Sequence record: OR061068 | Strand: one strand, 5' to 3' | DNA: 45,236 nt | Source: Escherichia phage CR01 | Shown: positions 62 through 45,236 of the stretch, piece by piece | Numbering within the stretch: position 1 is the first letter of the stretch | Layout of the letters: every line of letters begins with the position of its first letter | The notes under the pieces: generated by a model | Database searches by the model: none | Told to the model about the DNA's origin: nothing | What the model saw: only the letters and a program-made list of their open reading frames with translations | Made by a program: the position numbers and the translations under genes

Positions 62-115
62 TTATCTCTCGTTTTGATGTAATGAATAGTACCCTATTAT
101 ATTGGGGTGCGCAAA
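62..115 (-). promoter_or_regulatory. conserved early promoter/operator cassette, copy driving the wrap-around gene
   Basis: Reverse complement TTTGCGCACCCCAATATAATAGGGTACTATTCATTACATCAAAACGAGAGATAAGGAATTT immediately precedes the ATG; contains TATAAT, palindrome AATAG-N4-CTATT and an AAGGA ribosome-binding site; near-identical copies at 9808-9870, 43428-43495 and 32905-32970. Confidence 0.5.
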
Positions 116-2823: not shown

Positions 2824-3165
2824 ATGGCAGACGTATTGAAACGACGCACCACCGGCGTCTCCGCTGACGCCCCGGGTGCCAAGATTGACATGGTGACTAT
2901 TTCTCCTGCGTCTTTCTCGTCCGCGCTGGCGGCTACTACCTCCGTTACCGCAGGCGAAACCATGACACTGACCGTAACCGTAACTGGCGGTCTGGAGCCG
3001 TATTCCTACCAGTGGTATAAGAACAACAACGCCATCGCCGGGGCTACCGAGGCCACCTATGCTAAAGCGTCGACCACTACCGCCGATTCAGGCACGTATA
3101 AAGTGGTTGTTCACGATGCGTATGGTAATATTATCTCCAGCAGCACCGTAGCAACTGTGTCTTAA
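2824..3165 (+). CDS. Ig-like domain protein (candidate capsid decoration protein)
   Basis: 113 aa; motifs TLTVTVTGG, YQWYKNNNAI, DSGTYKVVV typical of Ig-like I-set/Big domains; sits directly after the capsid gene. Confidence 0.5.
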   Translation: MADVLKRRTTGVSADAPGAKIDMVTISPASFSSALAATTSVTAGETMTLTVTVTGGLEPYSYQWYKNNNAIAGATEATYAKASTTTADSGTYKVVVHDAYGNIISSSTVATVS

Positions 3166-3201
3166 TACAACGGCCCTTCGGGGCCGTAATAAGGAAAGGT
3201 C

Positions 3202-3381
3202 ATGGCAGATAATTATGTAATCCGCGAAAAGTACACCCACGTTGACGTTGTTGACGGTCAGGTAATGCCTGTTCGCGGTGTGGTAGAAGTGGACGAACTG
3301 GTTGCGACTCAACCGGACAACGAAGAAGCGCACAACAACGGCGGTGGTACTAAGCGTCGTCGCCGTAAGTCAGAGGAATAG
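3202..3381 (+). CDS. hypothetical small protein (59 aa), basic C-terminus
   Basis: ATG 3202 with ribosome-binding site AAGGAAAGG; ends GGGTKRRRRKSEE; below the ORF-track length cutoff. Confidence 0.35.
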   Translation: MADNYVIREKYTHVDVVDGQVMPVRGVVEVDELVATQPDNEEAHNNGGGTKRRRRKSEE

Positions 3382-3384
3382 TAC

Positions 3385-3537
3385 ATGAATATCGTGCGCC
3401 GCTTGCTCTGTACCCACAAATACCGAACGGTAAGAGTCGCGTATGGTGACGAGATAATTGGTAGAAATTACAAGCGATATTGCCAAGAGTGCACAAAATG
3501 CGGCGCAATCAGATACGTGGGTGGTGATAAATGTTAA
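3385..3537 (+). CDS. hypothetical small Cys-rich protein (50 aa, zinc-ribbon-like)
   Basis: CTHK...CQECTKC...C arrangement; start overlaps the preceding stop region. Confidence 0.3.
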   Translation: MNIVRRLLCTHKYRTVRVAYGDEIIGRNYKRYCQECTKCGAIRYVGGDKC

Positions 3538-4039
3538 TTGTAGAAACAGGTCAAATTGTAGATGGGGCCGATTCGTACATCTCGCTAGCTGACGCCCGCG
3601 CGTTAGCGGCTAATTATGGCCTTGAGTTACCTGCCGACGACCCCGCGGCGGAAGTAGCTCTGCGCAACGGTGCTACTTATGTCGGGCTTGCAGAACCACA
3701 GATGTGCGGCCGCCGTGTGTCGGCCGAACAGTCTCTTGCATACCCTCGCACGGGGTAACATTGAATGGCTTCCCTGTAGCTAACAACACCATTCCGAAAC
3801 AGGTGATTCTTGCGCAGGTAATCGCAGCCGCTACATATGGCTCCGGCACAGAAGTGCGGGCTAACTCGGACGGTCGCTCCGTGCAGACTGAGCGTGTCGA
3901 GGGTGCGGTCACAGTGACGTACTTCAACAACGGCAGCAGTGGCGCTACGACCGCGATTACCGCCGCTGACGACGCCTTACGCCCGTTACTGTGTGGTGGT
4001 CTTAACAATGGCTTCTCATTTAATGTGTACCGGGGTTAA
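3531..4039 (+). CDS. head-tail connector-like protein, frameshifted at G-run 3752-3755
   Basis: Track ORFs 3531..3758 and 3704..4039 join in one frame if one G is added to GGGG; N-terminus ISLADARALAANYGLELPADDPAAEV resembles gp6-like head-tail connector proteins. Confidence 0.4.
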
Positions 4040-4041
4040 AA

Positions 4042-4656
4042 ATGGCGAAGACTAAATCAGAGATGTTCACCCTCATCGGCGCGAATCTCCCCGATAACAC
4101 CAACGGTGCCATCACACCCGCGAAGCTACGCGAGGTAATGACGCAGATGGCGGACTCACCTATTTACGCCACTCCCGGTGTTAAAGAGGTTGAAGTTCTC
4201 CGCGCAGCGTCGACCGTGATACAAGTGCCCACCGCAACGAACACGGCGTTGCAGTTAACTTTTGGAGCTGCACAGGGTAGCGCATCCGACCCTGTAATGA
4301 TTAATGCCGCGGGGCTGGTTACGTTCAACACCGCGGGTAACTATGCCGTTCGCATCAAGTTACAGGCTGGGCGCACGGGGGCTAGCGGAACGTCTATCCT
4401 GTTATCACGCCTTCTTCTGAACGGCGCTCAGTACGGCTCGCCCGCAGCTACTAAACTGGTAAGCGCGGATACCACAATCCCGATTGAGTCTCGCGTCGTT
4501 ATTAACCCGACCGCAGGCCAGACGTTTGCCGTTCAGATTATGCGGGATAGCGCCGGGAGTAACTTCGGCGGCGTATACCCGCAAGCGGCTACGGTAACTG
4601 CATGGGGCACAGCACCATCTGCGCTACTGGTTATTTCGAGACTGGAGGCTGCGTAA
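4042..4656 (+). CDS. hypothetical virion structural protein
   Basis: 204 aa ORF in the head-tail gene block; Ala/Thr/Gly-rich. Confidence 0.35.
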   Translation: MAKTKSEMFTLIGANLPDNTNGAITPAKLREVMTQMADSPIYATPGVKEVEVLRAASTVIQVPTATNTALQLTFGAAQGSASDPVMINAAGLVTFNTAGNYAVRIKLQAGRTGASGTSILLSRLLLNGAQYGSPAATKLVSADTTIPIESRVVINPTAGQTFAVQIMRDSAGSNFGGVYPQAATVTAWGTAPSALLVISRLEAA

Positions 4657-4787
4657 TGCGAAAAATAATTAATATGTGGATTAACTCTGATTTTTTGTGG
4701 AAGTACGAATTTTTGGTATCAGTGTTTGCGCTGGTATCAACAACAGCTCTAATTATATTTTTAGCGGTTTGCGGGGAGTCAACATGA
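4656..4787 (+). CDS. small AT-rich membrane protein ORF (43 aa) inside the structural module
   Basis: ATG overlaps the upstream stop (TAATG) and its own stop overlaps the next ATG (ATGA); one hydrophobic helix FLVSVFALVSTTALIIFLAV; local AT content visibly higher than the flanks. Confidence 0.35.
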   Translation: MRKIINMWINSDFLWKYEFLVSVFALVSTTALIIFLAVCGEST

Positions 4788-5143
4788 GCACCGCTTTCAG
4801 CAAACGTATGCAGGGCGTGGGTACACGCCTGCTAACCAAATTCGGCAGCACAGTATCTCTGGTTCGCGCTGGCTCGAAAGTGTGGGATGAAGTTCTCGGT
4901 GAATGCGTCTGGTCCGCCGACGAAGTGTTGCCTTTGAAGGCCGTTCCGGTTCCGGTAAACGCGGGGCTGGTTAACGGTGCGACGATTCAGGCTGACGACA
5001 TGATTGTTAAAGCGGATTACAGCGTCGTTCCGAAGATGGAAGACAAGGTGCAATTCGGCGGCGAGCAATGGTCTGTCGTAGCTATCGAGAAGAAGATGGT
5101 TAACGATGATGTCGTGGCCTACTTTATCCAGGTGAGAAAATGA
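4784..5143 (+). CDS. putative head closure / head-tail joining protein
   Basis: 119 aa from ATG 4784 (the track ORF extends spuriously upstream to 4697); position between connector and neck genes. Confidence 0.4.
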   Translation: MSTAFSKRMQGVGTRLLTKFGSTVSLVRAGSKVWDEVLGECVWSADEVLPLKAVPVPVNAGLVNGATIQADDMIVKADYSVVPKMEDKVQFGGEQWSVVAIEKKMVNDDVVAYFIQVRK

Positions 5144-5640
5144 GTTTCGCGCTTGATGTCTCTAAGTTCGTCGAAAAGGCGAAGAAGAATCCCGAGAAGG
5201 TGATGCGCCAGGTGTCTATCAAGCTGTTTTCCGCTATCATAAAGGCGAGTCCGGTAGATACTGGTCGCTTTCGTATGAACTGGATGGCCTCTGGCGGTAC
5301 TCCTGCTTCCGGCACAAGTCAAGGTACTGACCCTAGCGGAGCTAACGCGATAGGCGCTATGGTTTCTACTGTGTCAGGCTTACCCGACTGGAGCGAGTTC
5401 ACCCTGACAAATAACCTGCCGTATGCGGAAGTTATAGAGTTTGGAGGTTACGCTACCGGCTTCCATGGCCCTAAGCGCCCTTCTAACTTAGGCTCTAAAT
5501 TTGTTGGCCCATTGAGGCCGAAAGCGCCCAGCAGAACAACCACAGACGGATATTCCCTTCAGGCTCCGCAAGGTGTTGTCCGGGTTAACGTTCAGCGATT
5601 CAATAAACTGCTCGAAGAAGAAGCGAGGAAGTATAAATAA
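5140..5640 (+). CDS. HK97 gp10-like neck / tail completion protein
   Basis: 166 aa containing a VDTGRFRMNW motif (DTGxLR-type motif of the HK97 gp10 family). Confidence 0.45.
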   Translation: MSFALDVSKFVEKAKKNPEKVMRQVSIKLFSAIIKASPVDTGRFRMNWMASGGTPASGTSQGTDPSGANAIGAMVSTVSGLPDWSEFTLTNNLPYAEVIEFGGYATGFHGPKRPSNLGSKFVGPLRPKAPSRTTTDGYSLQAPQGVVRVNVQRFNKLLEEEARKYK

Positions 5641-6053
5641 TGGGCTACTTTGAGGACTTAACCAAAGCGTTTGATGTGCCGCTGGTAGCCTTCGGAACAA
5701 CCAACGGCATCAAGGTGGCGCTTGAAAACATCGACGCGCCGACGTCAACCGATACACCGTATCTGGCGAGTTACATGTTGCTGGCAGATACGGAACAGGC
5801 TGACTTATTCTTCACCGAGCAACGTTCTGGTATTTATCAGGTCGACATTAACTACGCATCGGTGAAAGGTAGCGCGCCAATCAATAAAATGGCAGACTTA
5901 CTTAACACGGCGTTTAAAGCAGGTAAGTCATTTTCACGTAACGACATCTGCGCCGAGGTTCAATCGGTTAGCCTGGGGCCACTGATTGTAGAAAACGGAT
6001 GGGCCAAAAGACCATTGTCAATTAACTTTATCGCATTCACCAAGAGGCTGTGA
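5640..6053 (+). CDS. putative tail terminator protein
   Basis: 137 aa ORF immediately upstream of the major tail gene; start overlaps the preceding stop. Confidence 0.35.
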   Translation: MGYFEDLTKAFDVPLVAFGTTNGIKVALENIDAPTSTDTPYLASYMLLADTEQADLFFTEQRSGIYQVDINYASVKGSAPINKMADLLNTAFKAGKSFSRNDICAEVQSVSLGPLIVENGWAKRPLSINFIAFTKRL

Positions 6054-9480: not shown

Positions 9481-9807
9481 CTATTTACTTTCCGCGCCTA
9501 TCGCCCACCCGGTCATCACCATTTGCAGGCGGGTGGCTGTCAGTAGGCTGTAAAACGCGTCTCCGTTTTTCTCTACCGAACGTATTACAGAGTATGTTAC
9601 GGCTTGCGGAGGCAGGCCCGATTTACCAACCCCTACGGCAGCCTCACACTCGCGAACGGTAGAGTCCTTAAATGCCTTTACAATAGTAGGGTCGGCTTTA
9701 TCGAGCACACCAGAAGTCATAAGAACAGATTCACTAAATACCTGTTCGCACGGGGACCCAAAAGCAGCAAAAGACATAAACCCCAGAGCTAATACTAATT
9801 TACGCAT
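9481..9807 (-). CDS. small secreted/periplasmic protein (108 aa), first gene of the moron operon
   Basis: N-terminal signal peptide MRKLVLALGFMSFAAFG; gene sits immediately downstream of a conserved early promoter cassette. Confidence 0.5.
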   Translation of the reverse strand: MRKLVLALGFMSFAAFGSPCEQVFSESVLMTSGVLDKADPTIVKAFKDSTVRECEAAVGVGKSGLPPQAVTYSVIRSVEKNGDAFYSLLTATRLQMVMTGWAIGAESK

Positions 9808-9870
9808 AATTATTTCCTCAGTAAGTTACAGGTGAATAGTACCCTATTATATTGGGGTGCGCAAGTAGTG
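9808..9870 (-). promoter_or_regulatory. conserved early promoter/operator cassette driving the moron operon
   Basis: Reverse complement CTTGCGCACCCCAATATAATAGGGTACTATTCACC...GAGGAAATAATT-ATG; near-identical to the copies at 62-115 and 43428-43495. Confidence 0.5.
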
Positions 9871-9971: not shown

Positions 9972-10388
9972 ATGAAACTCTCTGATTTTTATTTTGCGGA
10001 CCGCCATGCTGCTGGCACTAAAATGCCCATCCTTCTGCCTAGCGGTAAAGATTCCGGTGAATGGTTGCAAGTCATCGGCCCTGATTGTGACGCTGGCGTT
10101 CGTGCTGGCCGTGCCTATACAACGGCAATTCGACGCCTTACGGAAGAACTTGCGCCGTTAGATAAAGAGTGCGAGGCACTGAATAACTGGGCGCGCTATA
10201 ACGATGAGAAGGGCTGGCGGGTGATGGACTTGAACAAGCAGCTTGCCGTTGAAATCGTCACCGGTTGGTCGTTCGACGAACCTTTCAGCAAAGAGGCACT
10301 GGCTAACCTGTTCGACCAGTACAGTGGGCTGGCGGAGGCCGTAGTTAAGCATCACACCGACAGTCGCGAGAAACTCTCGGAAAAGTAA
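9972..10388 (+). CDS. tail assembly chaperone (lambda G-like)
   Basis: 138 aa ORF immediately upstream of the tape measure gene; ends at a GAAAAG slip site with an open -1 frame downstream. Confidence 0.55.
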   Translation: MKLSDFYFADRHAAGTKMPILLPSGKDSGEWLQVIGPDCDAGVRAGRAYTTAIRRLTEELAPLDKECEALNNWARYNDEKGWRVMDLNKQLAVEIVTGWSFDEPFSKEALANLFDQYSGLAEAVVKHHTDSREKLSEK

Positions 10389-22531: not shown

Positions 22532-22831
22532 CTAACTATAATAGCTCGCTATTAGGTCGTCAACCTGTTTAAACGAACCAACGACAAAAACATTAGCACC
22601 GCGTTTACACATCCGCTCATGCTCCCGTAACTGGTGCGGGTCTGGCTTCGTGTTTTCGTCTTTCTTCACCTCGACGAACCAGATGATGCCACCAGGGAGA
22701 ATTGCCAGCAGGTCGGGGGCGCCGGAACGTCCTTCGTAGGAGAGCTTACGAACGAGGCCCCCAATGGCCTCGAATCGGTCTTTGCGTATTTCTGAATCTT
22801 GCCTTCCGGGGTCACAGCAAAGGCTCCGCAT
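22532..22831 (-). CDS. VRR-NUC domain nuclease
   Basis: About 99 aa from ATG 22831; motif RSGAPDLLAILPGGIIWFVEVKK (PD...E-x-K). Confidence 0.5.
   Translation of the reverse strand: MRSLCCDPGRQDSEIRKDRFEAIGGLVRKLSYEGRSGAPDLLAILPGGIIWFVEVKKDENTKPDPHQLREHERMCKRGANVFVVGSFKQVDDLIASYYS
22534..22562 (-). promoter_or_regulatory. sigma70-like promoter with operator palindrome
   Basis: Reverse complement TTGACG-ACCTAATAGCGAGCTAT-TATAGT; contains AATAG-N5-CTATT. Confidence 0.45.
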
Positions 22832-26149: not shown

Positions 26150-26182
26150 TAGAAATATAATAGCTAACTATTCAGGTGTCAA
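26150..26182 (-). promoter_or_regulatory. sigma70-like promoter with operator palindrome upstream of the SSB-like gene
   Basis: Reverse complement TTGACA-CCTGAATAGTTAGCTAT-TATATT; contains AATAG-N4-CTATT. Confidence 0.5.
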
Positions 26183-26460
26183 CCCTTCCAGCCAGTTATT
26201 TTCTCAACTATCTCAATATACTTGTTTGGCCATTTCATGTTGTTTATGAAACGTAACGCCTGTGTCTTCCACGATTTGTCATTCAGGATGGCTTCGATGT
26301 CGCGTGTTCGCATTAGGCATATCGTAAGGCACGCTATGATAAATGTTGGTATCATTAGCGGCGACATAAGAACCCAGAAAATAATACACGCCACAAAACC
26401 GCCAATTACTCTGAACATTTTACGAATCATTCCAAATCCTCCTCTGTTACCTGATTCCAC
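26179..26460 (-). CDS. small membrane protein (93 aa)
   Basis: Two hydrophobic segments (VIGGFVACIIFWVLMSPLMIPTFIIACLTICL). Confidence 0.35.
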   Translation of the reverse strand: MESGNRGGFGMIRKMFRVIGGFVACIIFWVLMSPLMIPTFIIACLTICLMRTRDIEAILNDKSWKTQALRFINNMKWPNKYIEIVEKITGWKG

Positions 26461-27533
26461 TCAGGACGTTTGTCGTCCGCCGTTGCGACGCATGGCGCGC
26501 CTGGTTTACGGGTAATGAAGTCTTTCAGTTCTTCTTCCGGTATTACTTTAACCGCTTCGGTCGGCGTCATGAGCACTTCTTTGGTCAGCTTGCCGCCGTA
26601 TTTCTCGGCCACTTTCTCTGCGTCTTTCCACGCGCGATTACCCGGCCGACCCTCAACCAGCTTGTACCCCGGTACTTTCTTGCCAGAATGCAACGCGGCG
26701 GCCATAGCTTTCTCGACCTTGTCGATGTGCTGGCGCAACAACGGCAACTTCTCATACTCAGCCACGAGTTGCTCCGGTGTAAGTTCCAGTGCGAAATCGT
26801 CCTCCAGTTCTTCCGCCAGCGCCGCGTTAACCGTCTTTGTACGCGCTGCGCACTGTTCTGAGAACCGACACCACTGACAGCCGTCGACAGACGGCCTGAA
26901 GTCCGACGCTTTCAGGTTCTTCTTGCCGCGGGAATACGCATCAAGCGCTAACAGTGCCCGTTTCTGCGCAAACTTAGCGAACAGTTCCAGACCTTCAACC
27001 GAGATGTCCCACTCCGACGCACCGCCAGCGTACGGCTGGAAGATGACCAGACGGACAACTGTGATGTTATAACGTCTCTTGAGTCGGCGATAAACACCGA
27101 GAGCGTAAAGCATAAGCTGCTTGTTTTCTTTCGCTTCGACACGATGCCGTCCAGTTTTCAGGTCGCCGATAATGAGCATGTGATCGTCGGTGTTCGCCAG
27201 CTCCTGAACGGCAACAAGGTCAGCGGTTCCGAACGTCTCGACACCTTCATACCCAGGATGCAATACCTCAGTAAGATTGACTCGCATTTCCAGCTTGGCG
27301 TAAGTCGCTACGTCGATAATCGCTTTGCAGTAGTCTGTGTACTTGCGCACCTGCTCAATCATATCCGCCGTAATCAGTACCGCGCCTTTCATCGGGCTGA
27401 TTAGCGCCTTAATCTGGCCTTTACCTTCATCAAGCACGTAAGCACCGACTTCGCGCTCTAACGGCAGCGCAGTACCGCGTATATAGGCGTTGAGATGTAC
27501 CTCAGCTATTGTATGCATAGCTGTGCCTAACAC
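26427..27533 (-). CDS. PD-(D/E)xK nuclease, Cas4/RecB-like
   Basis: 368 aa; GTADLVAV, IIGDLKTG and QLMLYAL motifs plus a Cys cluster CQWCRFSEQC. Confidence 0.5.
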   Translation of the reverse strand: MLGTAMHTIAEVHLNAYIRGTALPLEREVGAYVLDEGKGQIKALISPMKGAVLITADMIEQVRKYTDYCKAIIDVATYAKLEMRVNLTEVLHPGYEGVETFGTADLVAVQELANTDDHMLIIGDLKTGRHRVEAKENKQLMLYALGVYRRLKRRYNITVVRLVIFQPYAGGASEWDISVEGLELFAKFAQKRALLALDAYSRGKKNLKASDFRPSVDGCQWCRFSEQCAARTKTVNAALAEELEDDFALELTPEQLVAEYEKLPLLRQHIDKVEKAMAAALHSGKKVPGYKLVEGRPGNRAWKDAEKVAEKYGGKLTKEVLMTPTEAVKVIPEEELKDFITRKPGAPCVATADDKRPEWNQVTEEDLE

Positions 27534-27663
27534 GGCAGCTTTGCCGGACGTGTTAGGAATATCTTTTCACAGGCCAGTGATGCACTGCACGCCAGCCACT
27601 TTTTAGCACCTGACGGCGATAGTAATGCGTGCACATCGTTATTGCCGCCGCGTTCTTTTAGAA

Positions 27664-28026
27664 TCATCGTAAACTCTCCAAATACAAGTTTAATGCCTGT
27701 AACTGTTCTTCTGTGGGAATGAAAGAATCATCGCGGTGTAAGTCGCTTAACTGTTGCAACATTCCTGCGAACTTACGTCTTGCGTCGACAGCGACCATGT
27801 GATGCTTTTCACTTTTGTATATTAATGTTTTCGGGTAATCCTCAAGCCTGCCAGACGATTTATTCACTCGGAGCGCCCGAGCTTCATGCGCAATGTGTAT
27901 GTACTTTTTACCGTTTTGTAGCACAGTAGCTACACCGCTGTTCTTTCTGCGGTCGCCGACGGTATAAACTTTGTCGCCGCTGCGCAAATTAAGCCACCAT
28001 TTATCAGTCATGCTCTGTTCTCCCAC
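27664..28026 (-). CDS. hypothetical protein (120 aa)
   Basis: Track ORF in co-directional operon. Confidence 0.3.
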   Translation of the reverse strand: MGEQSMTDKWWLNLRSGDKVYTVGDRRKNSGVATVLQNGKKYIHIAHEARALRVNKSSGRLEDYPKTLIYKSEKHHMVAVDARRKFAGMLQQLSDLHRDDSFIPTEEQLQALNLYLESLR

Positions 28027-28591: not shown

Positions 28592-28634
28592 AATTCCGAC
28601 CCTCAGTTAAAGCGGCCCGAAGGCCGCCAGATAG

Positions 28635-29153
28635 TTATTCTTCTTCGAAATACTTGTTCTTGATTGCCGTCAGGCGCTCCAGGTATTCAGCCAGGTCTTC
28701 GTCTTTAATCGCGGCAATCTTCATCTTCTTACCGGTGAACTCCTCCAGCAGTTCATCGGAATCATCGCACGCAGCATCACTCGGACCTTCATTAATCGCA
28801 TCGTCGATAGCCTGAATCTGGTCACGAAGAGACTGGTAATCGACCTCTTCTTTCTCTTCTTCTGGTTCTGGAGTCGGCTCCTCTACTTTGGCCTTACGCG
28901 GCTTGCGCTTCGGCTTCTCTTCTTCTGCTGGTTTAGTGTCAACGGTGTCTTCACCTTCAACAGGGATTTCTTTTGTTGCTTCTTTCGCAACAGTGGTCTC
29001 GATTGTTGCGGTTTCTGCGACACCACTGTCGACGTCTTTACCATATGGCGCCGTGATAGCCTTCGGCAGTTCGGTACGGCGTGCACTGTTCGCAGCAATC
29101 AGTTCATGCGCAACTACGAAACGTTCCAGTAATTTTAAGAATTGTTCTAACAT
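28635..29153 (-). CDS. hypothetical acidic low-complexity protein (172 aa)
   Basis: Central EEEKPKRKPRKAKVEEPTPEPEEEKEE region. Confidence 0.3.
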   Translation of the reverse strand: MLEQFLKLLERFVVAHELIAANSARRTELPKAITAPYGKDVDSGVAETATIETTVAKEATKEIPVEGEDTVDTKPAEEEKPKRKPRKAKVEEPTPEPEEEKEEVDYQSLRDQIQAIDDAINEGPSDAACDDSDELLEEFTGKKMKIAAIKDEDLAEYLERLTAIKNKYFEEE

Positions 29154-29175
29154 TTGTTTCTCCTGTTTATTTAGG

Positions 29176-29412
29176 TTACTCGCCGTCGCCTTCTGTAAGG
29201 CTATCGTCTATTAATTCAAATTTACCGTTTGAGTGTTGGATAGCTTCTTGCCCGCAATGGTCGCAAACCACCAGTTTATCGAATCCGTCAAACTCGTCCC
29301 CGACTACGCAAGAAAGTACAAATTTATGTTTTGTACATACTTCTTGCGGTTCACCGAAAATTGCCCGGAAACATTTAGCTATAGCTCCTGTGATTATGTT
29401 CATATCTGTCAC
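29176..29412 (-). CDS. hypothetical Cys-containing small protein (78 aa)
   Basis: Five Cys/His positions (C..C..C..C-DHC); ribosome-binding site GAGAGG before ATG; directly downstream of a consensus promoter. Confidence 0.35.
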   Translation of the reverse strand: MTDMNIITGAIAKCFRAIFGEPQEVCTKHKFVLSCVVGDEFDGFDKLVVCDHCGQEAIQHSNGKFELIDDSLTEGDGE

Positions 29413-29525
29413 CTCTCGTTTTGTATGGGCTAACTATAATAGCGAACTATTCACTTGTCAATGGGCTTTTCTAAAATAATTAATATGGTACTATTCACAT
29501 ATCAACTGACTAAGGAGTAATTGAC
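29413..29525. promoter_or_regulatory. divergent promoter region with two operator palindromes
   Basis: Minus direction TTGACA-N17-TATAGT around AATAG-TTCG-CTATT; plus direction a second TACTATTCA copy and ribosome-binding site AAGGAG before ATG 29526. Confidence 0.6.
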
Positions 29526-29741
29526 ATGCAACCATCTGAACTAGGCATCCGTGTAGAACAGCGCCGTAAAGAACTCGGCATCTCCCAGCGCCGTCTGGCT
29601 GTGCTGACCGGGGTTTCCCAGGGCGCAATTAACCAGCTTGCACTCGGTGTAACTCAGGACGTCCGCCCAGCAACGCTGTTTAAACTGGCGGAAGTGCTGG
29701 AAGTAGACGCCAAGTGGCTGGCGCTAGGTGAAGGGGCTTAA
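29526..29741 (+). CDS. XRE/Cro-like helix-turn-helix transcriptional regulator
   Basis: 71 aa; HTH signature LGISQRRLAVLTGVSQGAINQL; only + strand gene inside the minus-strand replication block. Confidence 0.65.
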   Translation: MQPSELGIRVEQRRKELGISQRRLAVLTGVSQGAINQLALGVTQDVRPATLFKLAEVLEVDAKWLALGEGA

Positions 29742-29757
29742 CGCCCCTTTCTTTTAC

Positions 29758-32014
29758 CTACTCCAAATCCTCCTCTGTCACCACCAGCATTTCATTCGGT
29801 TCGTATATTGTCTTCGGCCTTAATCTGTCCCCCATCTTTTCGGGTATCCGGTATGTGCCGGGGACAACTTCACCGTTAACATCACATCCGAGCATCAACT
29901 CCCCGTCTTTCAGCATCTTCTCGAGATGATGGTTGGTGATGGCGTGGTCCCCCGAGTTCGCCACTATCTGCCGTTGGGTAAAACCTCGTCCGGTGTCGTC
30001 GGACTGTTGCAGGTCTTCCAGCGCGGCGAGTATTGATTCCTTACGCCCTTCATCCTTCCCGCGTTTTACAGCATTATTTACGTTTTCTTTACCTTCTTTA
30101 GTTAACCCTTCTTCCCGCTCCTTCTCCTCGTCAGTTTTGAACGGCTCGAAGCCCCACGGCATCAGCACAAGCGCCTTGTGCGGCTCAGGCAGATCGAGGT
30201 TTACGATTGTGCCGTATTCCTCTGTGCTACCGAGGAACTCAACCGCACGGTATTCTTTCGGAGGCGGGGCTTCACGGAACTGTACCGACTCCAGAACCAT
30301 GCCAACCGTTTTCTGTTGAGGCCCATGCTTAAATTTCGAGTGGTATACGTTTATCTGGCGGCCGGTAGCGCGCTCAATTGTCAGCTCCACATCAACACCG
30401 GCATACAGCGCCCCGCTACCACGGGCTTTCTTTCCACCCTTAGGCGTATGGTGGACGACACCCACAGCGGCTTTAGTTGCGTCGCGTACTTTTTAAGGAT
30501 GGCGATAACTTTACCCATGCCAATTGCAGTTGATGAACTGTTCTCGTCGAACTTGTCAATTGTCAGGGCCAGCGTCTGGTTGAGGGTATCGAACGCGACC
30601 ATACCAATAGGCTCGTCCCCTGCAGCTTCACGCATCCTGCGGATTAGCGCGGGGATTTTTTATCACCATGCGCGGCGAGCACCTCACCCATATCAATGAC
30701 ATGTACGTAATCTTTACCTTCCTCGCCGTATTTAGCCGCGAGCGCGTCAATACGTGTGCGTGTAGCTGCGCCTCCCTCACCGTCGATATAGAAATGGTGG
30801 CAACGCTGGGTATCCGCCCCGGCAAACCGGTATCCGGCGGCGCTCAGGTACATCATCCCCAGCGTATAGAACGATTTGTACGTGCCGGATTCCCCAACAA
30901 TATCCCAGATACAATCTGACGGCATGTACCCCTCAACGACGAAATCAGCCTTTACCGGTTCCGGTAGCTCGTCCTCTTCTGAGTCATCATCGTCTTCCAG
31001 GTCGTCGAGGCTGCATGAAACAGATTCACGCGCACCCCATCCGATAGCCCCGGCGACTTCACTGAACGGCAGCCCAGTCGCATCACACGCGTATTTCCAC
31101 ACCTCTTTCGGCGACATGCCTTCGGTTGCCGTGATGTCGGTGTCGTGAATCATCGTTACGTTCGGCGCTTCATATCCCTCGCGCGGGAAGCATAGCAGGA
31201 AGTCGTCCGGACGCGGCGTCGGGTCGCTGTAGTTCTCTGCGTGTTCCGGTGTAGCTGGCATTTTTAGTCCGCGCGGCGTCATGATGCCACCGTACTCGAA
31301 CGCCAGTGCCTCAAACGCATCAGTAAACGCAGTGCGCAGTTCTTCCGGTATCTGGTAGTCAGATGCGCTGCTGATGTCAACGGCTGGGACGCCTTCCAGT
31401 AACTCATCAGGGTCAATCAGGTCGTTGCGGCGCGACCAGATAACAGTAGAGCCAACTGGCGGCAGGTACATCGGCTGCGACAGAGTGAACCCGCTGCGGT
31501 CCGCGCCCATGCCTTTGAAGAAGTGCTCCAGTAATCCATGGCGAACACGGATGATGTCGCCACCTTCAACCGGGCGGGCCAGCGGCATGACGACGCGAAA
31601 GCGCGGCGACTCGTCGGTATGTGATGCCGTGGTGTAGAGACACATCGCCTGGCGGCTGCGCTTAACCAGGCGCACCGCTTCCTGATACTCTTCCGGCGTT
31701 GTGCTGTCGAAGTCCAGGTACGCCAGCGACGATTTGCTTACAGACGCATCACAGCGATAGAAGAAGCCTTTGCGCGCCTGCTTAAAGTCACCGGTTTCCG
31801 GGTCTTTTACGGTGCTGTGCGTAGAGTCGCACGCGGCAGTGATATACCCCGGCGCGGTCTTAGGGCTAATCCCGTCACGAACGGCATCGAGCGGCTGGAT
31901 TAACTCTTTCAGGTCGTCCAGTGTTGCCGTGTGGGTAGTTCTGACGTTTATATCCTTTTTCTCTGCCCGCGCGTTGCGACGTGACCACGAGTAGGATAAA
32001 ATTACATCGGACAT
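29758..32014 (-). CDS. DNA primase-helicase (primase-like N-domain plus RecA/DnaB-like C-domain), split by two homopolymer frameshifts
   Basis: N-domain LAYLDFDS (DxD-type); P-loop-like GESGTYKS; C-region VVHHTPKGGKKARGSGALYAG resembles the DnaB H4 motif; frame changes at T6 run 30656-30661 and T5 run 30490-30494 repaired by adding one base. Confidence 0.6.
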
Positions 32015-32302: not shown

Positions 32303-32506
32303 TCATTTTACATTCTCCTTAATCCACGCTTCCACTTTCTCCAGGTCGAAAGTACCCGGCTGCCGGCGGCCCATAATACGGATACAACAATCCGGGAACT
32401 TCCCACTCTTTAACCAGTTATTCAGCGTGCGACGGGTAACCCCAATACGCTCGGCTACTTCATTCTGTGTCATTCTCAAACCCCCATTATCAGTTAACGA
32501 AACCAA
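32303..32506 (-). CDS. AlpA/excisionase-type HTH DNA-binding protein
   Basis: 67 aa; MTQNEVAERIGVTRRTLNNWLKSGKFP; preceded by a TTGATT-N17-TATACT promoter-like sequence. Confidence 0.55.
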   Translation of the reverse strand: MVSLTDNGGLRMTQNEVAERIGVTRRTLNNWLKSGKFPDCCIRIMGRRQPGTFDLEKVEAWIKENVK

Positions 32507-32509
32507 GTA

Positions 32510-32970
32510 TACATTGCGAATAATGGGAAATCAAACATAATCGCACCTATTGACATTAAGAAAATCTTCGTTTAAGGTGCTTCTATATCTTAGTTACTTT
32601 GATTCCTGTTCACCTTGTAAAACCCGCCGAAAACGAGCGCCCAACGCGAAGTGTTAGGCGGCAGTTTACTGAACATTCGAATTATCGTAACTTTCCTTCC
32701 TAAGTATCTCCGGTTGCCCTGGGCAAGCTCTATTCCCATCGGCGGAATATATCTTAAGTATCTGATTTTCTTAAAGTGCCGTAGATTCGCAACCGTAAAA
32801 ATGTAACGATTATTGGGCAGGCTTAGGGCCTGCCCTTTAGTTACCAAGTAATAAGAATAAAGGCACAACCCTACCTGAAGAATCACAACGGCAACGTAAC
32901 TATTCTCTTGCACACCCCAACATAATAGGTTACTATTCACTTATCGAAACGAGACATAAGGAATTTAGCA
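32510..32970. promoter_or_regulatory. 460-bp non-coding control region with divergent promoters and a terminator-like hairpin (candidate origin / ncRNA locus)
   Basis: No convincing ORF; TTGACA at 32552 with -10-like element; hairpin GGGCAGGC-TTAG-GGCCTGCCC plus T-tract at ~32816-32842; conserved cassette at 32905-32970. Confidence 0.45.
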
Positions 32971-33189
32971 ATGAACAAAGCGACTGCAAGCGTAGTTTCC
33001 GCAATCAAAGAAGTTTACGGCATCGATATTTCAGAGCGCGTAATTATCGGGAACAAACGCAGCTTCTTTACGTTCGACACCGACGGAATGGATGAAAATG
33101 ATTTTAACAACGTACAACGTTTCGCCAACGGTAAAGGGCTTCGTAACGAGCCTGCTGGTTACAAGAAATTCGCTATCTACTTTAAATAA
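32971..33189 (+). CDS. 72-aa early protein, paralog of the wrap-around gene
   Basis: MNKATASVVSAIKEVYGIDISERVIIGNKRSFFTFDTDGMDENDFNNVQRFANGKGLRNEPAGYKKFAIYFK; same length and ~80% identical to the wrap-around product; same promoter-leader cassette. Confidence 0.6.
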   Translation: MNKATASVVSAIKEVYGIDISERVIIGNKRSFFTFDTDGMDENDFNNVQRFANGKGLRNEPAGYKKFAIYFK

Positions 33190-34636: not shown

Positions 34637-34771
34637 CAGGTCAATAGTTTACTATTTGACTGAGTGACTTACGCTGCTACACAGCAGCGTACAACTTTAG
34701 ATTAGTGTCGTCAAAAAGCGACACTTTCACCGAACGCAACAATAGAAGCGATTATTGCAGGAGATGCAACA

Positions 34772-35002: not shown

Positions 35003-35071
35003 AATTTACTTGCACACTGAGATAGAATAGACTACTATTCATTTACACAAACGAGAGGAGAGAGAGAGAAT

Positions 35072-35449
35072 ATGAGTAACAAAAACGAAGTATTCGAGTA
35101 CCTGATTGACCAGCTACGGCAGCAGGTAAATAACAACCAGTGCGAAGACCTGGCGCATGAGGTGCAGTCACTTAAGAATCAGTTGCGTGATGCGTCGGCG
35201 CAGATTAAGGAGTTGCATATTGCTTTGGCTACAGCTACCGGTGACGTAGAGGCGTACAAACTTATCCGTAAAGGTGGGCGCATTTCTGATGGTCAGAGCT
35301 ACGTAGTAGGTGAACACGGACCTGAGCAATCTGGTTGCTGTAAGGAAGACGTGAGGCTGTCTGTATGCCAGTGCGTTCCTGCCCACTGCGGAACTTACCA
35401 CGGCAATATCGTAGTCTGCGATAACCGCGGCGGGGTTATACCCGAATGA
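35072..35449 (+). CDS. hypothetical coiled-coil / Cys-rich protein (125 aa)
   Basis: Track ORF; preceded by a conserved promoter cassette copy (35005-35071) and ribosome-binding site GAGAGGAGAG; C-terminal CCKEDVRLSVCQCVPAHC. Confidence 0.4.
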   Translation: MSNKNEVFEYLIDQLRQQVNNNQCEDLAHEVQSLKNQLRDASAQIKELHIALATATGDVEAYKLIRKGGRISDGQSYVVGEHGPEQSGCCKEDVRLSVCQCVPAHCGTYHGNIVVCDNRGGVIPE

Positions 35450-36148: not shown

Positions 36149-36585
36149 CGACTATCGCGTTTGACGGAAAGACAATGGCCTGTGACACACGTGTTGTGTG
36201 CGGGAGTAACTGCTACAACACAGACACAAAGATATACGAGAATGATACTTATGTTATAGGGGTAGCGGGTGATGCTGGAGTTGGCACTATGCTTATCGAC
36301 TGCCCGTATATCCTCCAGGCCAGACCATACGAATTCGATTTCGAAGCCCTGGTGTTCGTGAAAGACACAGAAAAGGTGTACAAAGTCGCGTTCTATAAAT
36401 CATGGGATTGTGCACTTAGTTCAGTTATTCCGGTTGCTGATGTGTACGCCGCCGTGGGGTCTGGCTCGCCATATGCATTAGCCGCTATGGAGTGCGAATA
36501 TTCGGCGCATGGCGGCGTAGCCGTTGCATCGAAGTTCGACACTAACACCGGCGGCAAGATTATTACCAAACAACTATTAGGATAA
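36145..36585 (+). CDS. HslV/proteasome beta-subunit-like Ntn-hydrolase
   Basis: 146 aa; starts MTTIAFDG (Thr directly after Met), VIGVAGDAGVG and AAVGSGSPYALAAMEC align with the E. coli HslV motifs TTIVSV, VIAGFAGG and IAIGSGGPYAQAAARA as recalled. Confidence 0.45.
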   Translation: MTTIAFDGKTMACDTRVVCGSNCYNTDTKIYENDTYVIGVAGDAGVGTMLIDCPYILQARPYEFDFEALVFVKDTEKVYKVAFYKSWDCALSSVIPVADVYAAVGSGSPYALAAMECEYSAHGGVAVASKFDTNTGGKIITKQLLG

Positions 36586-41643: not shown

Positions 41644-43112
41644 ATGTTAACTATGAACGGTCAGAATCAGGGTGTTAAGACAAAACACCGGGAATGGCTG
41701 CATCACTTCGATAAATGGCAGAAGGTGCGCCACGCACTGGAGGGCGACCTTATCCGCTATCTGCGCAACGTCGGGAAGAACGAGCCGGACCCGACCTACG
41801 CGGCACAGCGCCAGGAAGAATACGAGAACGGGGCTATCTGCTATAACTTCACCAAGCGCACCCTGGCGGGGATGGTTGGGTCGGTGATGCGCAAAGACCC
41901 CGAACAGATTATTCCGCCTGAGCTTGAGTACCTGTTACGTAACGCCGACGGTTCTGGTGTCGGGCTGTGGCAGCACGCGCAGGATACTTTGATGGAGATT
42001 GACTCGGTGGGCCGTGGCGGGTTGCTGGTGGACGCCCCGGAGACAGCCGCGGCAACGGCGGCAGAACAGAACGCGGGGCTATTAAACCCGGTCATTGCAT
42101 TCTATACCGCAGAGAACATCATAAACTGGCGACTGACCCGCGTTGGTTCAGTTAACCGTGTGACGATGGTCGTGCTGCGTGAGGTGTGGGAATACTCGGA
42201 ACCGGGCGCAGAGTTCGAAACAAAGTTCGGTGAGCAATACCGCGTTCTCGATTTGATTGATGGTCGCTACCGCCAGCGCATTTACCGCTTCGATGCCGAA
42301 GGTGGTGCGCAGGGTGAAGTAATCGAAATATTCCCTGAACTTGGTGAACAGTTGCGCGGCAAAATCCCGTTCACGTTCATTGGGGCGAGCAACAACGACG
42401 CCACTATAGACGATGCACCTTTGCTGCCGTTGGCTGAGCTCAATATCGGACATTTCCGCAACAGCGCGGACAATGAGGAGTCCAGCTTCGTTGTAGGGCA
42501 GCCCACCCTGTTCATTGCCCCAGGTGAGAACATGAGCATGGAACAGTGGAAAGAGGCCAACCCTCACGGCGTCCGCACGGGGTCGCGTTCAGGCCACAAC
42601 ATTGGTTACGGCGGCAATGCGTTTCTGGTTCAGGCAGGGAGAACAACCTCGCCAAACAGAACATGCTGGATAAAGAGAATCAGGCGATTCAGATTGGTGC
42701 GCAGCTTATCACCCCGACGCAGCAAATCACCGCTGAATCGGCCCGTCTGCAACGTGGTGCTGATACTTCAGTTATGGCAACAATCGCACGTAACGTAAGC
42801 ATGGCGTACACTGATGCGCTGCGCTGGGTGGCTGCGATGCTTGGGCTGCGTGAAGGCACAGAGATTGAGTTCAAGCTGAATATGGAGTTCTTCCTGCAAC
42901 CGATGACCGCTCAGGACCGTGCTCAGTGGATGGCGGATATTAACGCGGGTCTGTTACCGGCTACCGCTTATTATGCTGCGTTGCGCAAGGCAGGTGTAAC
43001 TGACTGGACGGACGAGGACATTCAGAACGCTATTGAGGACGCACCTCTGCCGTTGGGTGCTGTTACTCAGGTGGCTGGAGAGATTCCGCAGTCGGCGCAA
43101 CAACAGGAGTAA
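41644..43112 (+). CDS. portal protein, frameshifted at G-run ~42637-42639
   Basis: Track ORFs 41644..42798 and 42546..43112 join with one added G; position between TerL and the head morphogenesis gene. Confidence 0.6.
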
Positions 43113-43116
43113 ATAG

Positions 43117-43140
43117 AAAGGCCCCTTAAGGGGCCTTATC
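43117..43140. terminator. bidirectional rho-independent terminator
   Basis: AAAGGCCCCTTAAGGGGCCTT followed by T-rich tract; between convergent portal (+) and 43146..43427 (-). Confidence 0.6.
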
Positions 43141-43145
43141 TTTCT

Positions 43146-43427
43146 TTATACAAATATGAATCCATTGCTGGAAGAGGTGTATCGGGTGGTGCCGTTTTTC
43201 GTTTCGGGCCAACAGATATATGAGCGACCATGATACTCTACCCACCAAAGTTCTACATCGGCATCCCCATTAGGTCGCGTCAACCACCCGTGGTGCAGCC
43301 AATACTTGCGCCCTATTTTAAATATGCCTTCTTCGCATGAAGGCCTGCAACAGGCGACGCACTCTACTTGAACACCATCAACATGCACACATGTCATATG
43401 TAAATTACTGTTTGAATATTTAGCCAT
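43146..43427 (-). CDS. Cys-rich small protein (93 aa) driven by a conserved early promoter cassette
   Basis: MAKYSNSNLHMTCVHVDGVQVECVACCRPSCEEG...; lone minus-strand gene inside the late region. Confidence 0.5.
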   Translation of the reverse strand: MAKYSNSNLHMTCVHVDGVQVECVACCRPSCEEGIFKIGRKYWLHHGWLTRPNGDADVELWWVEYHGRSYICWPETKNGTTRYTSSSNGFIFV

Positions 43428-43495
43428 TTCTAAATTCCTTATCTCTCGTTTTGATGTAATGAATAGTACCCTATTATATTGGTGTCTGCAAATAT
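43428..43495 (-). promoter_or_regulatory. conserved early promoter/operator cassette
   Basis: Reverse complement TTTGCAGACACCAATATAATAGGGTACTATTCATTACATCAAAACGAGAGATAAGGAATTTAGAA-ATG. Confidence 0.5.
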
Positions 43496-43535
43496 TATTT
43501 TTATGCGTTACACTGTCTATACTACAGGAGGGCTT

Positions 43536-45040: not shown

Positions 45041-45070
45041 AAAAGGCCCCATTACGGGGCCTTAGTTTTA
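45041..45070. terminator. bidirectional rho-independent terminator
   Basis: AAAAGGCCCCATTACGGGGCCTTAGTTTTATTT between convergent genes. Confidence 0.6.
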
Positions 45071-45236
45071 TTTGAAGAATATCGCGAATTTCTTGTAACC
45101 CGCTGGCTCGTTGCGCAGACCGTGTTCGTTAGCAAAACGTTGTACATTGTTAAAGTCATTTTCACCCATTCCGTCCGTATCGAACGTAAAGAAATTACGT
45201 TTGTTCCCGATAAGCACACGGCTTGTGATATCAATG
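45068..45236 (-). CDS. 3' part of the wrap-around 72-aa early protein gene (start at 50..1)
   Basis: Reverse complement reads IDITSRVLIGNKRNFFTFDTDGMGENDFNNVQRFANEHGLRNEPAGYKKFAIFFK-stop, collinear with residues 18-72 of the 32971..33189 product. Confidence 0.6.
   Translation of the reverse strand, partial: IDITSRVLIGNKRNFFTFDTDGMGENDFNNVQRFANEHGLRNEPAGYKKFAIFFK

What the first reader, a model, noticed from the sequence alone, without database searches (positions are those of the whole stretch)
29413..29741. Lone XRE/Cro-like regulator embedded antisense in the replication block, behind back-to-back operator-containing promoters
The 71-aa HTH gene is the only + strand gene in a 12.7 kb minus-strand block and converges on the 3' end of the primase-helicase gene with a 16-nt gap. 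Its promoter region carries two copies of the palindromic operator: one overlapping a consensus TTGACA-N17-TATAGT promoter for the divergent Cys-rich gene (29176..29412), one overlapping its own promoter. This looks like an autoregulatory switch without any integrase or long CI-type repressor, and it may time the early-to-middle transition.
Basis: partly seen in the sequence, partly recalled or inferred. Interest (0 to 1): 0.5.

Follow-up and report, generated by a model that had tools for sequence, protein, structure and literature searches.

The report
Cro-like repressor gene with genome-wide operators
A small Cro-type DNA-binding gene of a lytic E. coli phage (Kagunavirus) sits between two copies of a 14-base palindrome, but the same palindrome is built into about ten other promoters across the genome, so this looks like one node of a genome-wide transcription brake and not a private local switch.

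Summary
A 71-aa XRE gene (29526..29741, +) is the only plus-strand gene in a 12.6 kb minus-strand block. It ends 16 nt from the primase-helicase stop. Upstream lie two copies of AATAG-N4-CTATT: 29438-29451 (exact) and 29482-29495 (one mismatch). The first fills the spacer of a TTGACA-17-TATAGT promoter pointing at the Cys-rich gene.

The window is a complete Kagunavirus genome, about 94% identical to phage BUCT825 over the tested segment. The protein is a 434-Cro-like five-helix domain.

The interpretation needs widening. The palindrome is not private to this locus. It occurs 14 times (about 1 expected), almost always in the spacer of a sigma-70-like promoter. A related 16-bp form, TAWTAN-N4-NTAWTA, is enriched at matching promoter positions in Jerseyvirus, Cornellvirus and STP-1. 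A 2023 paper had already listed it as a repeated "phage promoter" motif.

Best reading (about 0.5): the XRE dimer binds these palindromes, represses the divergent promoter and many others, and limits its own synthesis through the weaker proximal site. Binding is inferred, not shown. The recognition helix differs between genera that share the palindrome, which counts against it.

This is a new member of a known kind and moderately interesting.

The parts
29526..29741 (+). XRE / 434-Cro-like regulator gene, 71 aa
   Evidence: The ORF is listed. Pfam HTH_3 matches at E 2.3e-12. The closest solved sequence is 434 Cro 1zug, E 7.9e-6, aligned over the full length. The AF2 model has five helices and pLDDT 85. 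Foldseek gives 434 Cro 2cro TM 0.77/0.83.
29438..29451 (.). Site A: exact palindrome AATAG-CGAA-CTATT in the spacer of the leftward promoter
   Evidence: Found. In about 37 distinct Kagunavirus upstream regions the half-sites never change, while the central 4 bp vary (CGAA, CTAA, CCAA, TGAA, CAAA, CTAG, CGAG).
29482..29495 (.). Site B: AATAT-GGTA-CTATT, with one conserved mismatch; its 16-bp form starts 45 nt upstream of the XRE start codon
   Evidence: Found. The AATAT mismatch and the position are conserved in all Kagunavirus variants. It is the same site as PP5 of phage fBC-Eco01.
29433..29461 (-). Leftward sigma-70-type promoter TTGACA (29461-29456), 17-nt spacer, TATAGT (29438-29433)
   Evidence: The promoter scan scores it 11/12. 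The -35 and -10 hexamers are conserved in Kagunavirus relatives.
29450..29486 (+). Candidate promoters of the XRE gene: TTCACT-16-TAAAAT (29450-29477), or a -10-only TAATAT (29481-29486)
   Evidence: The first scores 9/12 but is not conserved in other Kagunavirus lineages. TAATAT is conserved. Neither has been shown to be active.
29730..29750 (+). Intrinsic terminator of the XRE transcript; the stop codon lies in the loop
   Evidence: The scan finds an 8-bp stem with 5 G-C pairs followed by a T-run. The fold is -20.7 kcal/mol, z -2.7. On the minus strand the same hairpin has no U-run after it (sequence). The homologous site is annotated as a terminator in phage Shelanagig.
29176..29403 (-). 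Cys-rich 75-aa gene, first gene downstream of the leftward promoter
   Evidence: The ORF is. It has no Pfam match. It matches phrog_32657, function unknown. It is annotated as 75 aa in BUCT825 and is absent from Jerseyvirus.
29758..32014 (-). Primase-helicase gene converging on the XRE gene; read here as three ORFs
   Evidence: tblastn with the intact 752-aa BUCT825 protein covers it in three frames. The breaks are two 1-nt deletions in T-runs near 30490 and 30656.
32924..32937 (.). Same palindrome (AATAGGTTACTATT) in the promoter region between the HTH_17/primase-helicase operon and the rightward small-gene block
   Evidence: On the minus strand it reads TCGATA-17-TATGTT.
26159..26172 (.). 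Same palindrome in a TTGACA-17-TATATT minus-strand promoter upstream of the ssDNA-binding and DNA polymerase genes
22540..22553 (.). Same palindrome in a TTGACG-17-TATAGT minus-strand promoter
9835..9848 (.). Same palindrome between divergent genes 9481..9807 (-) and 9972..10388 (+); GTTACA-17-TATATT on the plus strand
85..98 (.). Same palindrome upstream of the spanin, scaffold and capsid genes; TTGATG-18-TATATT on the plus strand
   Evidence: This is part of a repeated ~80-110-nt cassette.
43462..43475 (.). Same palindrome in a cassette copy between a 93-aa minus-strand ORF and the minor capsid gene
35026..35039 (.). Same palindrome upstream of gene 35072..35449
34643..34656 (.). Same palindrome, extended to TCAATAG-TTTA-CTATTGA, with no recognisable promoter around it
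32303..32473 (-). HTH_17 (MerR-like winged-helix) 56-aa gene; the rival candidate for binding the palindrome
   Evidence: Pfam HTH_17 matches at E 3.6e-7. The AF2 model resembles the gpNu1 DNA-binding domain, BldC, RacA and Xis. Homologues are found only in Kagunavirus and Jerseyvirus.

Best explanation
The window is a complete genome of a lytic Kagunavirus (subfamily Guernseyvirinae). The 71-aa protein is a single-domain XRE regulator of the phage 434 Cro type.

The most likely mechanism is that it binds as a dimer to the 14-bp palindrome AATAG-N4-CTATT. The outer 5 bp of each half would be contacted and the central 4 bp left free.

At site A (29438-29451) the dimer would lie across the spacer and the first base of the -10 of the strong leftward promoter TTGACA-17-TATAGT. 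This would block RNA polymerase and repress the operon that runs from the Cys-rich gene to the exonuclease.

At site B (29482-29495) the dimer would lie over the regulator's own -10 and start region. Site B carries a conserved mismatch, so it should fill only at higher protein levels. That gives negative autoregulation which caps the protein concentration.

The same palindrome is built into the spacer of most other recognisable promoters: the replication-block promoters at 32924, 26159 and 22540, and the structural and accessory promoters at 85, 9835, 43462 and 35026. The protein is therefore predicted to be a genome-wide, Cro-like turn-down factor and not a private switch.

Shown here: the gene, the fold class, the sites, their promoter context, their enrichment and their conservation. 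Inferred: that this protein is the one that binds, the direction of the effect, and the timing.
For: 1. Protein class. HTH_3 matches at E 2.3e-12. The best solved-structure sequence matches are 434 Cro (71 aa, aligned end to end, E 7.9e-6) and the N-terminal domain of the 434 repressor. The five-helix AF2 model has TM 0.77/0.83 to 434 Cro. From established knowledge, 434 operators are also 14 bp with conserved outer bases and an uncontacted centre.

2. Site footprint. In about 37 distinct Kagunavirus upstream regions the half-sites of site A never change while the central 4 bp vary freely. Site B always keeps its mismatch and lies at a fixed distance from the start codon.

3. Two phased sites flank the regulator's own promoter. 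They are 43-45 bp apart in Kagunavirus and 55 bp apart in Jerseyvirus, so the two genera differ by about one helical turn.

4. Enrichment. There are 14 hits against 1.03 expected. Eight of the 9 exact copies are intergenic, and 7 sit in the spacer of a -35/-10 pair that points at the downstream genes.

5. Distribution across lineages. A related 16-bp motif, TAWTAN-N4-NTAWTA, is enriched at homologous promoters in all four lineages examined. Exact hits are 6, 7 and 7 in Jerseyvirus, Cornellvirus and STP-1, against 0.15-0.30 expected. Of the three small DNA-binding proteins compared across the four genomes, the XRE gene and a NinH-like protein are present in all four, and the HTH_17 protein is not.

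6. Gene order. In Cornellvirus and STP-1 the XRE gene heads the operon that contains the primase-helicase gene, like cro ahead of O and P in lambda.
Against: No binding data exist for any member.

The helix-turn-helix is the most divergent part of the protein between Kagunavirus and Jerseyvirus: 12 of 33 residues are identical, and helix 3 reads SQGAINQ against SQSLITH. Yet both genera use essentially the same AATAG half-site.

Jerseyvirus helix 3 resembles that of Cornellvirus (TQSAISH), whose sites differ more (TATTA/TAATA, with a variable sixth base).

Cornellvirus and STP-1 have only one weak site next to their XRE gene.

A repressor acting on the promoters of structural genes is odd for a strictly lytic phage.

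Other DNA-binding proteins are encoded in the genome: the HTH_17 protein and a NinH-like 78-aa protein.
Confidence: 0.5

Rival explanations
1. Another factor reads the palindrome. Candidates are the HTH_17 protein at the head of the primase-helicase operon, the NinH-like 78-aa protein, or a host protein. On this reading the XRE protein binds a different, genus-specific operator at its own locus, and the two palindromes there simply place the XRE gene and its neighbour under that other factor's control.
For: The XRE recognition helix differs between Kagunavirus and Jerseyvirus although the palindrome is the same.

The HTH_17 protein is 79-98% conserved across both genera, in parallel with the palindrome. 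Its own promoter carries a site.

A Kagunavirus RNA-seq study lists a 'helix-turn-helix domain' gene among only four early genes (PMC12645636).

The NinH-like protein is present in all four lineages at 63-69% identity.
Against: HTH_17 is absent from Cornellvirus and STP-1, and those lineages still carry the related 16-bp palindrome family at homologous promoters.

The HTH_17 model is a bare MerR-like winged helix, similar to BldC, Xis and the gpNu1 DNA-binding domain. From established knowledge, such proteins usually bind direct repeats or asymmetric sites.

The 14-bp 5-4-5 palindrome is the geometry expected for a 434-type XRE dimer.
Confidence: 0.22
2. No dedicated repressor exists. The palindrome is an intrinsic part of a promoter cassette that has been duplicated around the genome. 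For example, it could be the overlap of two back-to-back promoters, or a spacer or initial-transcribed element that tunes host RNA polymerase. On this reading the XRE gene is a relic Cro from a temperate ancestor with little present role.
For: Stretches of ~80-110 nt around several sites are copies of each other, at 84-100% identity.

The opposite strand of each site carries a TATAAT and a conserved leader that ends at a start codon 39-44 nt downstream. The sequence could therefore be constrained by two promoters at once.

A previous paper simply catalogued the motif as a promoter (PMC9825357).
Against: The three strong replication-block promoters (22540, 26159, 29438) share the palindrome but not the rest of the cassette.

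The half-sites are invariant while the centre varies. That is the pattern of a protein-binding site and not of a polymerase element.

Site 34643 is an extended palindrome with no promoter around it.

The XRE gene is intact and conserved in more than 500 phage records.
Confidence: 0.15
3. The XRE protein acts mainly on something other than phage promoters. It could be an antitoxin-like or anti-defence module, or a regulator of host genes. Some records annotate it as DicA-like.
For: Fold matches include the HipB and HigA antitoxins and R-M controller proteins. Some database records call it 'transcriptional repressor DicA'.
Against: The gene is monocistronic. It has its own terminator and no adjacent toxin or restriction gene. 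These fold matches are generic to the XRE domain.
Confidence: 0.06

Closest known systems
Phage 434 Cro with the 434 OR/OL operators
   Same: Both proteins are 71-aa, single-domain, five-helix XRE proteins. Sequence similarity is detectable (E 7.9e-6, about 36-40% identity) and the model's fold matches. Both operators are 14-bp palindromes with conserved outer bases and a variable centre. In both, the sites overlap promoters, including the regulator's own. The Gln at the first position of helix 3 and an Arg-Pro after helix 3 are retained (alignment).
   Different: There is no partner CI repressor, no integrase and no lysogeny. The operators are not clustered as three sites between two promoters. 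They are spread over about ten promoters around the genome. The half-site is AATAG, not ACAA. Binding has not been shown.
Restriction-modification controller (C) proteins such as C.AhdI and C.BclI
   Same: Both are small XRE dimers with good fold matches. Both have two adjacent palindromic sites of unequal strength upstream of their own gene, which gives concentration-dependent autoregulation and a timing delay.
   Different: There are no restriction or modification genes downstream. The sites are 44 bp apart and not adjacent. The motif also occurs in many other promoters.
Cluster A mycobacteriophage repressor (L5 gp71) and its 'stoperators'
   Same: One phage repressor site is repeated many times across the genome and is not confined to a single immunity region (established knowledge).
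   Different: L5 sites are asymmetric 13-mers that lie within transcription units and act in a lysogen. The sites here are palindromes inside promoter spacers of a phage with no known lysogeny.
PHIRE 'phage promoter' motif of Kagunavirus fBC-Eco01 (PMC9825357)
   Same: It is the same sequence, with consensus tgAATAGTa-ccTATTat-T. Seven copies are listed. PP5 lies immediately upstream of the 'transcriptional repressor' gene and corresponds to site B here.
   Different: That paper attributed the motif to a phage-encoded RNA polymerase and made no link to the repressor gene. No RNA polymerase gene is annotated in the relatives examined. Here each copy sits inside a host sigma-70-type -35/-10 pair.

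Membership tests
XRE / HTH_3 family (Pfam PF01381) | Match to the family profile above the curated threshold | tested here: met
   47.2 bits against a cut-off of 23, E 2.3e-12, covering profile positions 2-55 of 55.
434 Cro-type single-domain regulators | A protein of about 70 aa made only of the five-helix DNA-binding domain | tested here: met
   The protein is 71 aa. The AF2 model has helices at 5-17, 21-28, 32-39, 48-57 and 62-66, with pLDDT 85. TM to 2cro is 0.77/0.83. The phmmer alignment covers residues 6-68 against 4-64 of 434 Cro.
434 Cro-type single-domain regulators | Binds as a dimer to palindromic operators that overlap promoters | not testable with these tools
   Suitable 14-bp palindromes overlap the divergent promoter and the gene's own promoter region.
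Lambdoid immunity region (cI - OR - cro) | Divergently transcribed long CI-type repressor next to cro, together with integration functions | tested here: not met
   The divergent neighbours are a 75-aa Cys-rich protein and a 172-aa acidic protein with no Pfam match. No CI or integrase is annotated in BUCT825 or Shelanagig.
Lambdoid immunity region (cI - OR - cro) | cro is the first gene of the operon that carries the replication genes | tested here: inconclusive
   Not met in this window or in Jerseyvirus, where the gene is monocistronic and converges on the primase-helicase gene. Met in Cornellvirus FSL SP-031 and STP-1, where XRE precedes the primase-helicase gene on the same strand.
R-M controller (C) proteins | Located immediately upstream of, and co-transcribed with, a restriction endonuclease gene | tested here: not met
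   A terminator follows the gene and the next gene converges on it.
Type II toxin-antitoxin antitoxins (HipB/HigA type) | Adjacent co-transcribed toxin gene | tested here: not met
   No co-directional neighbour exists on either side.
HTH_17 / MerR-like winged-helix proteins (the rival binder, 32303..32473) | Profile match and winged-helix fold | tested here: met
   PF12728 matches at 30.8 bits against a cut-off of 27. The model has the order H-H-strand-strand-H and resembles the gpNu1 DNA-binding domain, BldC, RacA and Xis at Foldseek probability 0.9-1.0.

The most novel reading that the evidence does not exclude
A whole subfamily of phages regarded as strictly lytic, and widely used for therapy and biocontrol (Guernseyvirinae), runs nearly all of its promoters under one Cro-like protein. 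The protein would act through a palindrome embedded in each promoter spacer. This would be a genome-wide governor left over from a temperate ancestor. It could time the infection programme, limit collisions between transcription and replication or packaging, or give resident genomes immunity-like control over superinfecting relatives or a carrier state.
Probability: 0.3. Interest if true: 0.55.

Novelty: new member of a known kind. Interest (0 to 1): 0.38.

Why it matters
Kagunavirus and Jerseyvirus phages are common candidates for therapy and biocontrol, and they are proposed as small chassis for phage engineering. Hundreds of their genomes carry a gene labelled "repressor" that is usually ignored or treated as a safety question.

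If this protein controls most phage promoters through one short palindrome, three things follow. It explains why a lytic phage keeps a repressor. It gives a single handle for tuning or switching the whole infection programme. It also corrects the published reading of the motif as a promoter for a phage RNA polymerase.

If the protein does not bind the palindrome, a widespread promoter-embedded operator in these phages still lacks a known reader.

Tried and rejected
1. A first covariation test appeared to tie the palindrome to the HTH_17 protein. AATAG-N4-CTATT is enriched in Kagunavirus and Jerseyvirus and absent from Cornellvirus and STP-1, and HTH_17 has the same distribution. This failed on closer reading. 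The Cornellvirus/STP-1 palindrome ATATTA-N6-TAATAT, taken one base inward, has the same 6-N4-6 geometry and a related half-site. The general motif TAWTAN-N4-NTAWTA is enriched in all four lineages.

2. I looked for HTH_17 relatives of intermediate divergence to test covariation. All hits in the phage records and in IMG/VR are at least 78% identical, apart from one partial 54% hit (L054) on a short contig, so the search was uninformative.

3. I looked for XRE relatives outside the subfamily that keep the Kagunavirus recognition helix, in order to read their operators. None were found in the protein database, in IMG/VR or in the genome collection.

4. I considered host-factor sites (CRP, ArgR, IHF, Fis, H-NS) by eye. 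None fits both half-sites. This rests on memory of the consensus sequences and is not a test.

5. A hairpin or RNA-level role for the palindrome was rejected. The arms are 5 bp, the centre varies, and Rfam finds nothing in the window.

6. Literature searches found no experimental study of this protein or motif. The gene table of the RNA-seq paper held as text covers only host genes, so the phage gene numbers could not be mapped with certainty.

Full report
**What the window is.** The tested 1.9-kb segment (28600-30500) is 94.5% identical to Escherichia phage BUCT825 (Guernseyvirinae, Kagunavirus), and 477 phage records match it. Most of the rest of the window aligns with BUCT825 at 78-98% identity. 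The first 3 kb has no large duplicate at the other end of the window, so the window appears to be one complete, circularly permuted genome.

**Checking the observation.**
- ORF 29526..29741 (+) encodes 71 aa and matches Pfam HTH_3 at E 2.3e-12.
- By homology with the BUCT825 annotation, all other genes between 19884 and 32506 are on the minus strand.
- The gene ends 16 nt before the stop of the convergent primase-helicase gene at 29758.
- A hairpin with a T-run at 29730-29750 holds the stop codon in its loop. On the minus strand the same hairpin has no U-run after it (sequence). Transcripts of the helicase operon may therefore run antisense through the XRE gene. That last point is an inference.
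- The intergenic DNA holds a 25-nt direct repeat. Each copy contains AATAG-N4-CTATT: exact at 29438-29451 (site A) and AATAT-GGTA-CTATT at 29482-29495 (site B).
- Site A fills spacer positions 5-17 and the first base of the -10 of a minus-strand TTGACA-17-TATAGT promoter, which matches 11 of 12 consensus positions.
The Cys-rich gene more likely starts at the ATG at 29403, as annotated in BUCT825.

**The palindrome is genome-wide.**
- With at most one mismatch it occurs 14 times in the window, against 1.03 expected and a maximum of 5 in shuffles.
- The nine exact copies are at 85, 9835, 22540, 26159, 29438, 32924, 34643, 35026 and 43462. Eight are intergenic.
- When each is placed in one orientation, seven sit in the same register of a sigma-70-like promoter: -35, four bases, AATAG-N4-CTAT, then T-ATAnT as the -10.
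- Three minus-strand promoters in the replication block have consensus or near-consensus -35 hexamers (29438, 26159, 22540). The others have 4/6 hexamers and share a longer ~80-110-nt cassette that is repeated at 84-100% identity.
- On the opposite strand each cassette carries a TATAAT and a conserved leader, AGGGTACTATTCA..., that ends in a ribosome-binding site and a start codon 39-44 nt away. Site B relates to the XRE start codon in the same way. The modules may therefore fire in both directions. Start sites have not been mapped.
- The motif has been seen before. Phage fBC-Eco01 was reported to have seven "phage RNA polymerase promoters" with consensus tgAATAGTa-ccTATTat-T. One of them, PP5, lies just upstream of its "transcriptional repressor" gene (PMC9825357). 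No RNA polymerase gene is annotated in the relatives examined, and the paper did not link the motif to the repressor.

**The protein.**
- The closest solved sequences are phage 434 Cro (71 aa, aligned over residues 6-68, E 7.9e-6) and the DNA-binding domain of the 434 repressor.
- The AF2 model has pLDDT 85 and five helices. It matches 434 Cro at TM 0.77/0.83. It also matches HipB, SinR, P22 c2 and R-M controller proteins.
- From established knowledge, 434 operators are 14 bp with conserved outer bases and an uncontacted centre. That is the geometry seen here.
- The Gln at the first position of helix 3 and an Arg-Pro after helix 3 are retained (alignment).

**Comparative evidence.**
- The XRE gene is found in 538 phage records. 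It is at least 90% identical within Kagunavirus, about 48% in Jerseyvirus and 41-43% in Cornellvirus and STP-1.
- In about 37 distinct Kagunavirus upstream regions the half-sites of site A never change, while the central four bases do (CGAA, CTAA, CCAA, TGAA, CAAA, CTAG, CGAG).
- Site B always keeps its AATAT mismatch, and its 16-bp form starts 45 nt before the start codon. This is the pattern expected of a protein-binding site with a deliberately weaker proximal copy.
- Jerseyvirus also has two sites at its XRE gene: TAATCG.TACT.CTATTA and TATTAC.TGTA.CTATTA. They are 55 bp apart, against 43-45 bp in Kagunavirus, a difference of about one helical turn.

**Who binds it.** My first test pointed away from XRE.
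- AATAG-N4-CTATT is enriched in Kagunavirus (14 hits against 1.3 expected) and Jerseyvirus (9 against 1.35), but not in Cornellvirus or STP-1.
- The MerR-like HTH_17 protein at 32303..32473 has exactly this distribution.
- The XRE recognition helix differs between the two genera that share the palindrome: SQGAINQ against SQSLITH.

Re-reading the Cornellvirus/STP-1 palindrome changed this.
- That palindrome is ATATTA-N6-TAATAT, with 5 hits against 0.02-0.05 expected.
- Taken one base inward, it has the same 6-N4-6 geometry and a related half-site.
- The general motif TAWTAN-N4-NTAWTA has 6, 7 and 7 exact hits in Jerseyvirus, Cornellvirus and STP-1, against 0.15-0.30 expected. These sit at homologous promoter positions.

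Lineages without HTH_17 therefore still have the operator family. Of the three small DNA-binding proteins I compared across the four genomes, XRE and a NinH-like 78-aa protein are present in all four and HTH_17 is not. The HTH_17 model is a bare winged helix of the BldC, Xis and gpNu1 kind. From established knowledge, such proteins usually read direct repeats.

The balance favours XRE. The divergence of the recognition helix remains real counter-evidence. I put the XRE reading at about 0.5.

**Most likely mechanism.**
- An XRE dimer at site A occludes the strong leftward promoter.
- A dimer at the weaker site B covers the gene's own -10 and start region and limits its own level.
- The same protein turns down the other palindrome-bearing promoters across the genome.
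- In Cornellvirus and STP-1 the gene heads the operon that contains the primase-helicase gene, like cro before O and P. This suggests descent from a lambdoid-type early region that has lost cI.
- Timing is unknown. The only RNA-seq study of a Kagunavirus places a "specific DNA binding" gene next to the AAA helicase gene in its middle class, and an HTH gene in its early class. Its sampling ran from 5 to 120 min, and I could not confirm its gene numbering (PMC12645636).

**Verdict.** The feature is real and more extensive than described. It is a new member of a known kind, a Cro/434-type regulator with palindromic operators, and its operators have an unusual genome-wide distribution in a lytic phage. 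It is moderately interesting, and the central link between protein and site awaits a simple binding experiment.

Noticed in passing
window 29758-32014 (breaks near 30490 and 30656); also 29752 and about 27563: The primase-helicase gene reads as three ORFs because of two single-base deletions in T-runs relative to BUCT825. The XRE terminator T-run is also one base short. The DUF2800 exonuclease gene (26427-27667) changes frame near 27563. Indels confined to homopolymers suggest sequencing error and not pseudogenes.
   Followed up: partly
window 1-50 joined to 45068-45236 (minus strand), and 32971-33189 (+): If the ends of the window are joined, a 72-aa minus-strand gene (MNKATANVV...) starts at position 50. 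It is a close paralogue of gene 32971..33189 (MNKATASVV...). Each lies directly behind a copy of the promoter cassette. Its function is unknown.
   Followed up: partly
window 43105-43535: About 430 nt here have no counterpart in BUCT825. The stretch carries a Cys-rich 93-aa minus-strand ORF (43146..43427) and a further copy of the palindrome cassette, inserted between the portal and minor-capsid genes. It looks like a small gene cassette that arrived with its own promoter.
   Followed up: no
L003 (FSL SP-031) 2992-5643; L004 (STP-1) 2992-5882: In Cornellvirus and STP-1 the XRE gene is on the same strand as the primase-helicase gene and lies upstream of it. These genomes have no HTH_17 gene. 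The replication module is therefore inverted relative to Kagunavirus and Jerseyvirus.
   Followed up: partly
window 34640-34657: An extended perfect palindrome, TCAATAG-TTTA-CTATTGA, lies between two plus-strand small genes with no recognisable -35/-10 around it. It could be an operator acting as a roadblock and not as a promoter site.
   Followed up: no
window 99-112, 9849-9862, 32910-32923 (minus strand), 43476-43489: The cassette copies share a second conserved element just beyond the -10, GGGGTGCGCAA, which contains the 6-bp palindrome TGCGCA. On the other strand it reads TTGCGC seven bases before TATAAT. That spacing does not fit a normal -35. The purpose of the element is unknown.
   Followed up: no
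window 32507-32970: A 464-nt stretch without an annotated gene lies between the HTH_17 operon and the rightward small-gene block. BUCT825 likewise has no annotated gene in the corresponding ~500-nt gap. It holds only short repeats and has no Rfam match. It could contain the replication origin or untranslated leaders.
   Followed up: partly
L005 (Shelanagig) 36437-36476: In Jerseyvirus the site at the main divergent region is a 30-bp perfect palindrome, CCTGTAATAATAG-TACT-CTATTATTACAGG. It is much longer than the other copies.
   Followed up: no
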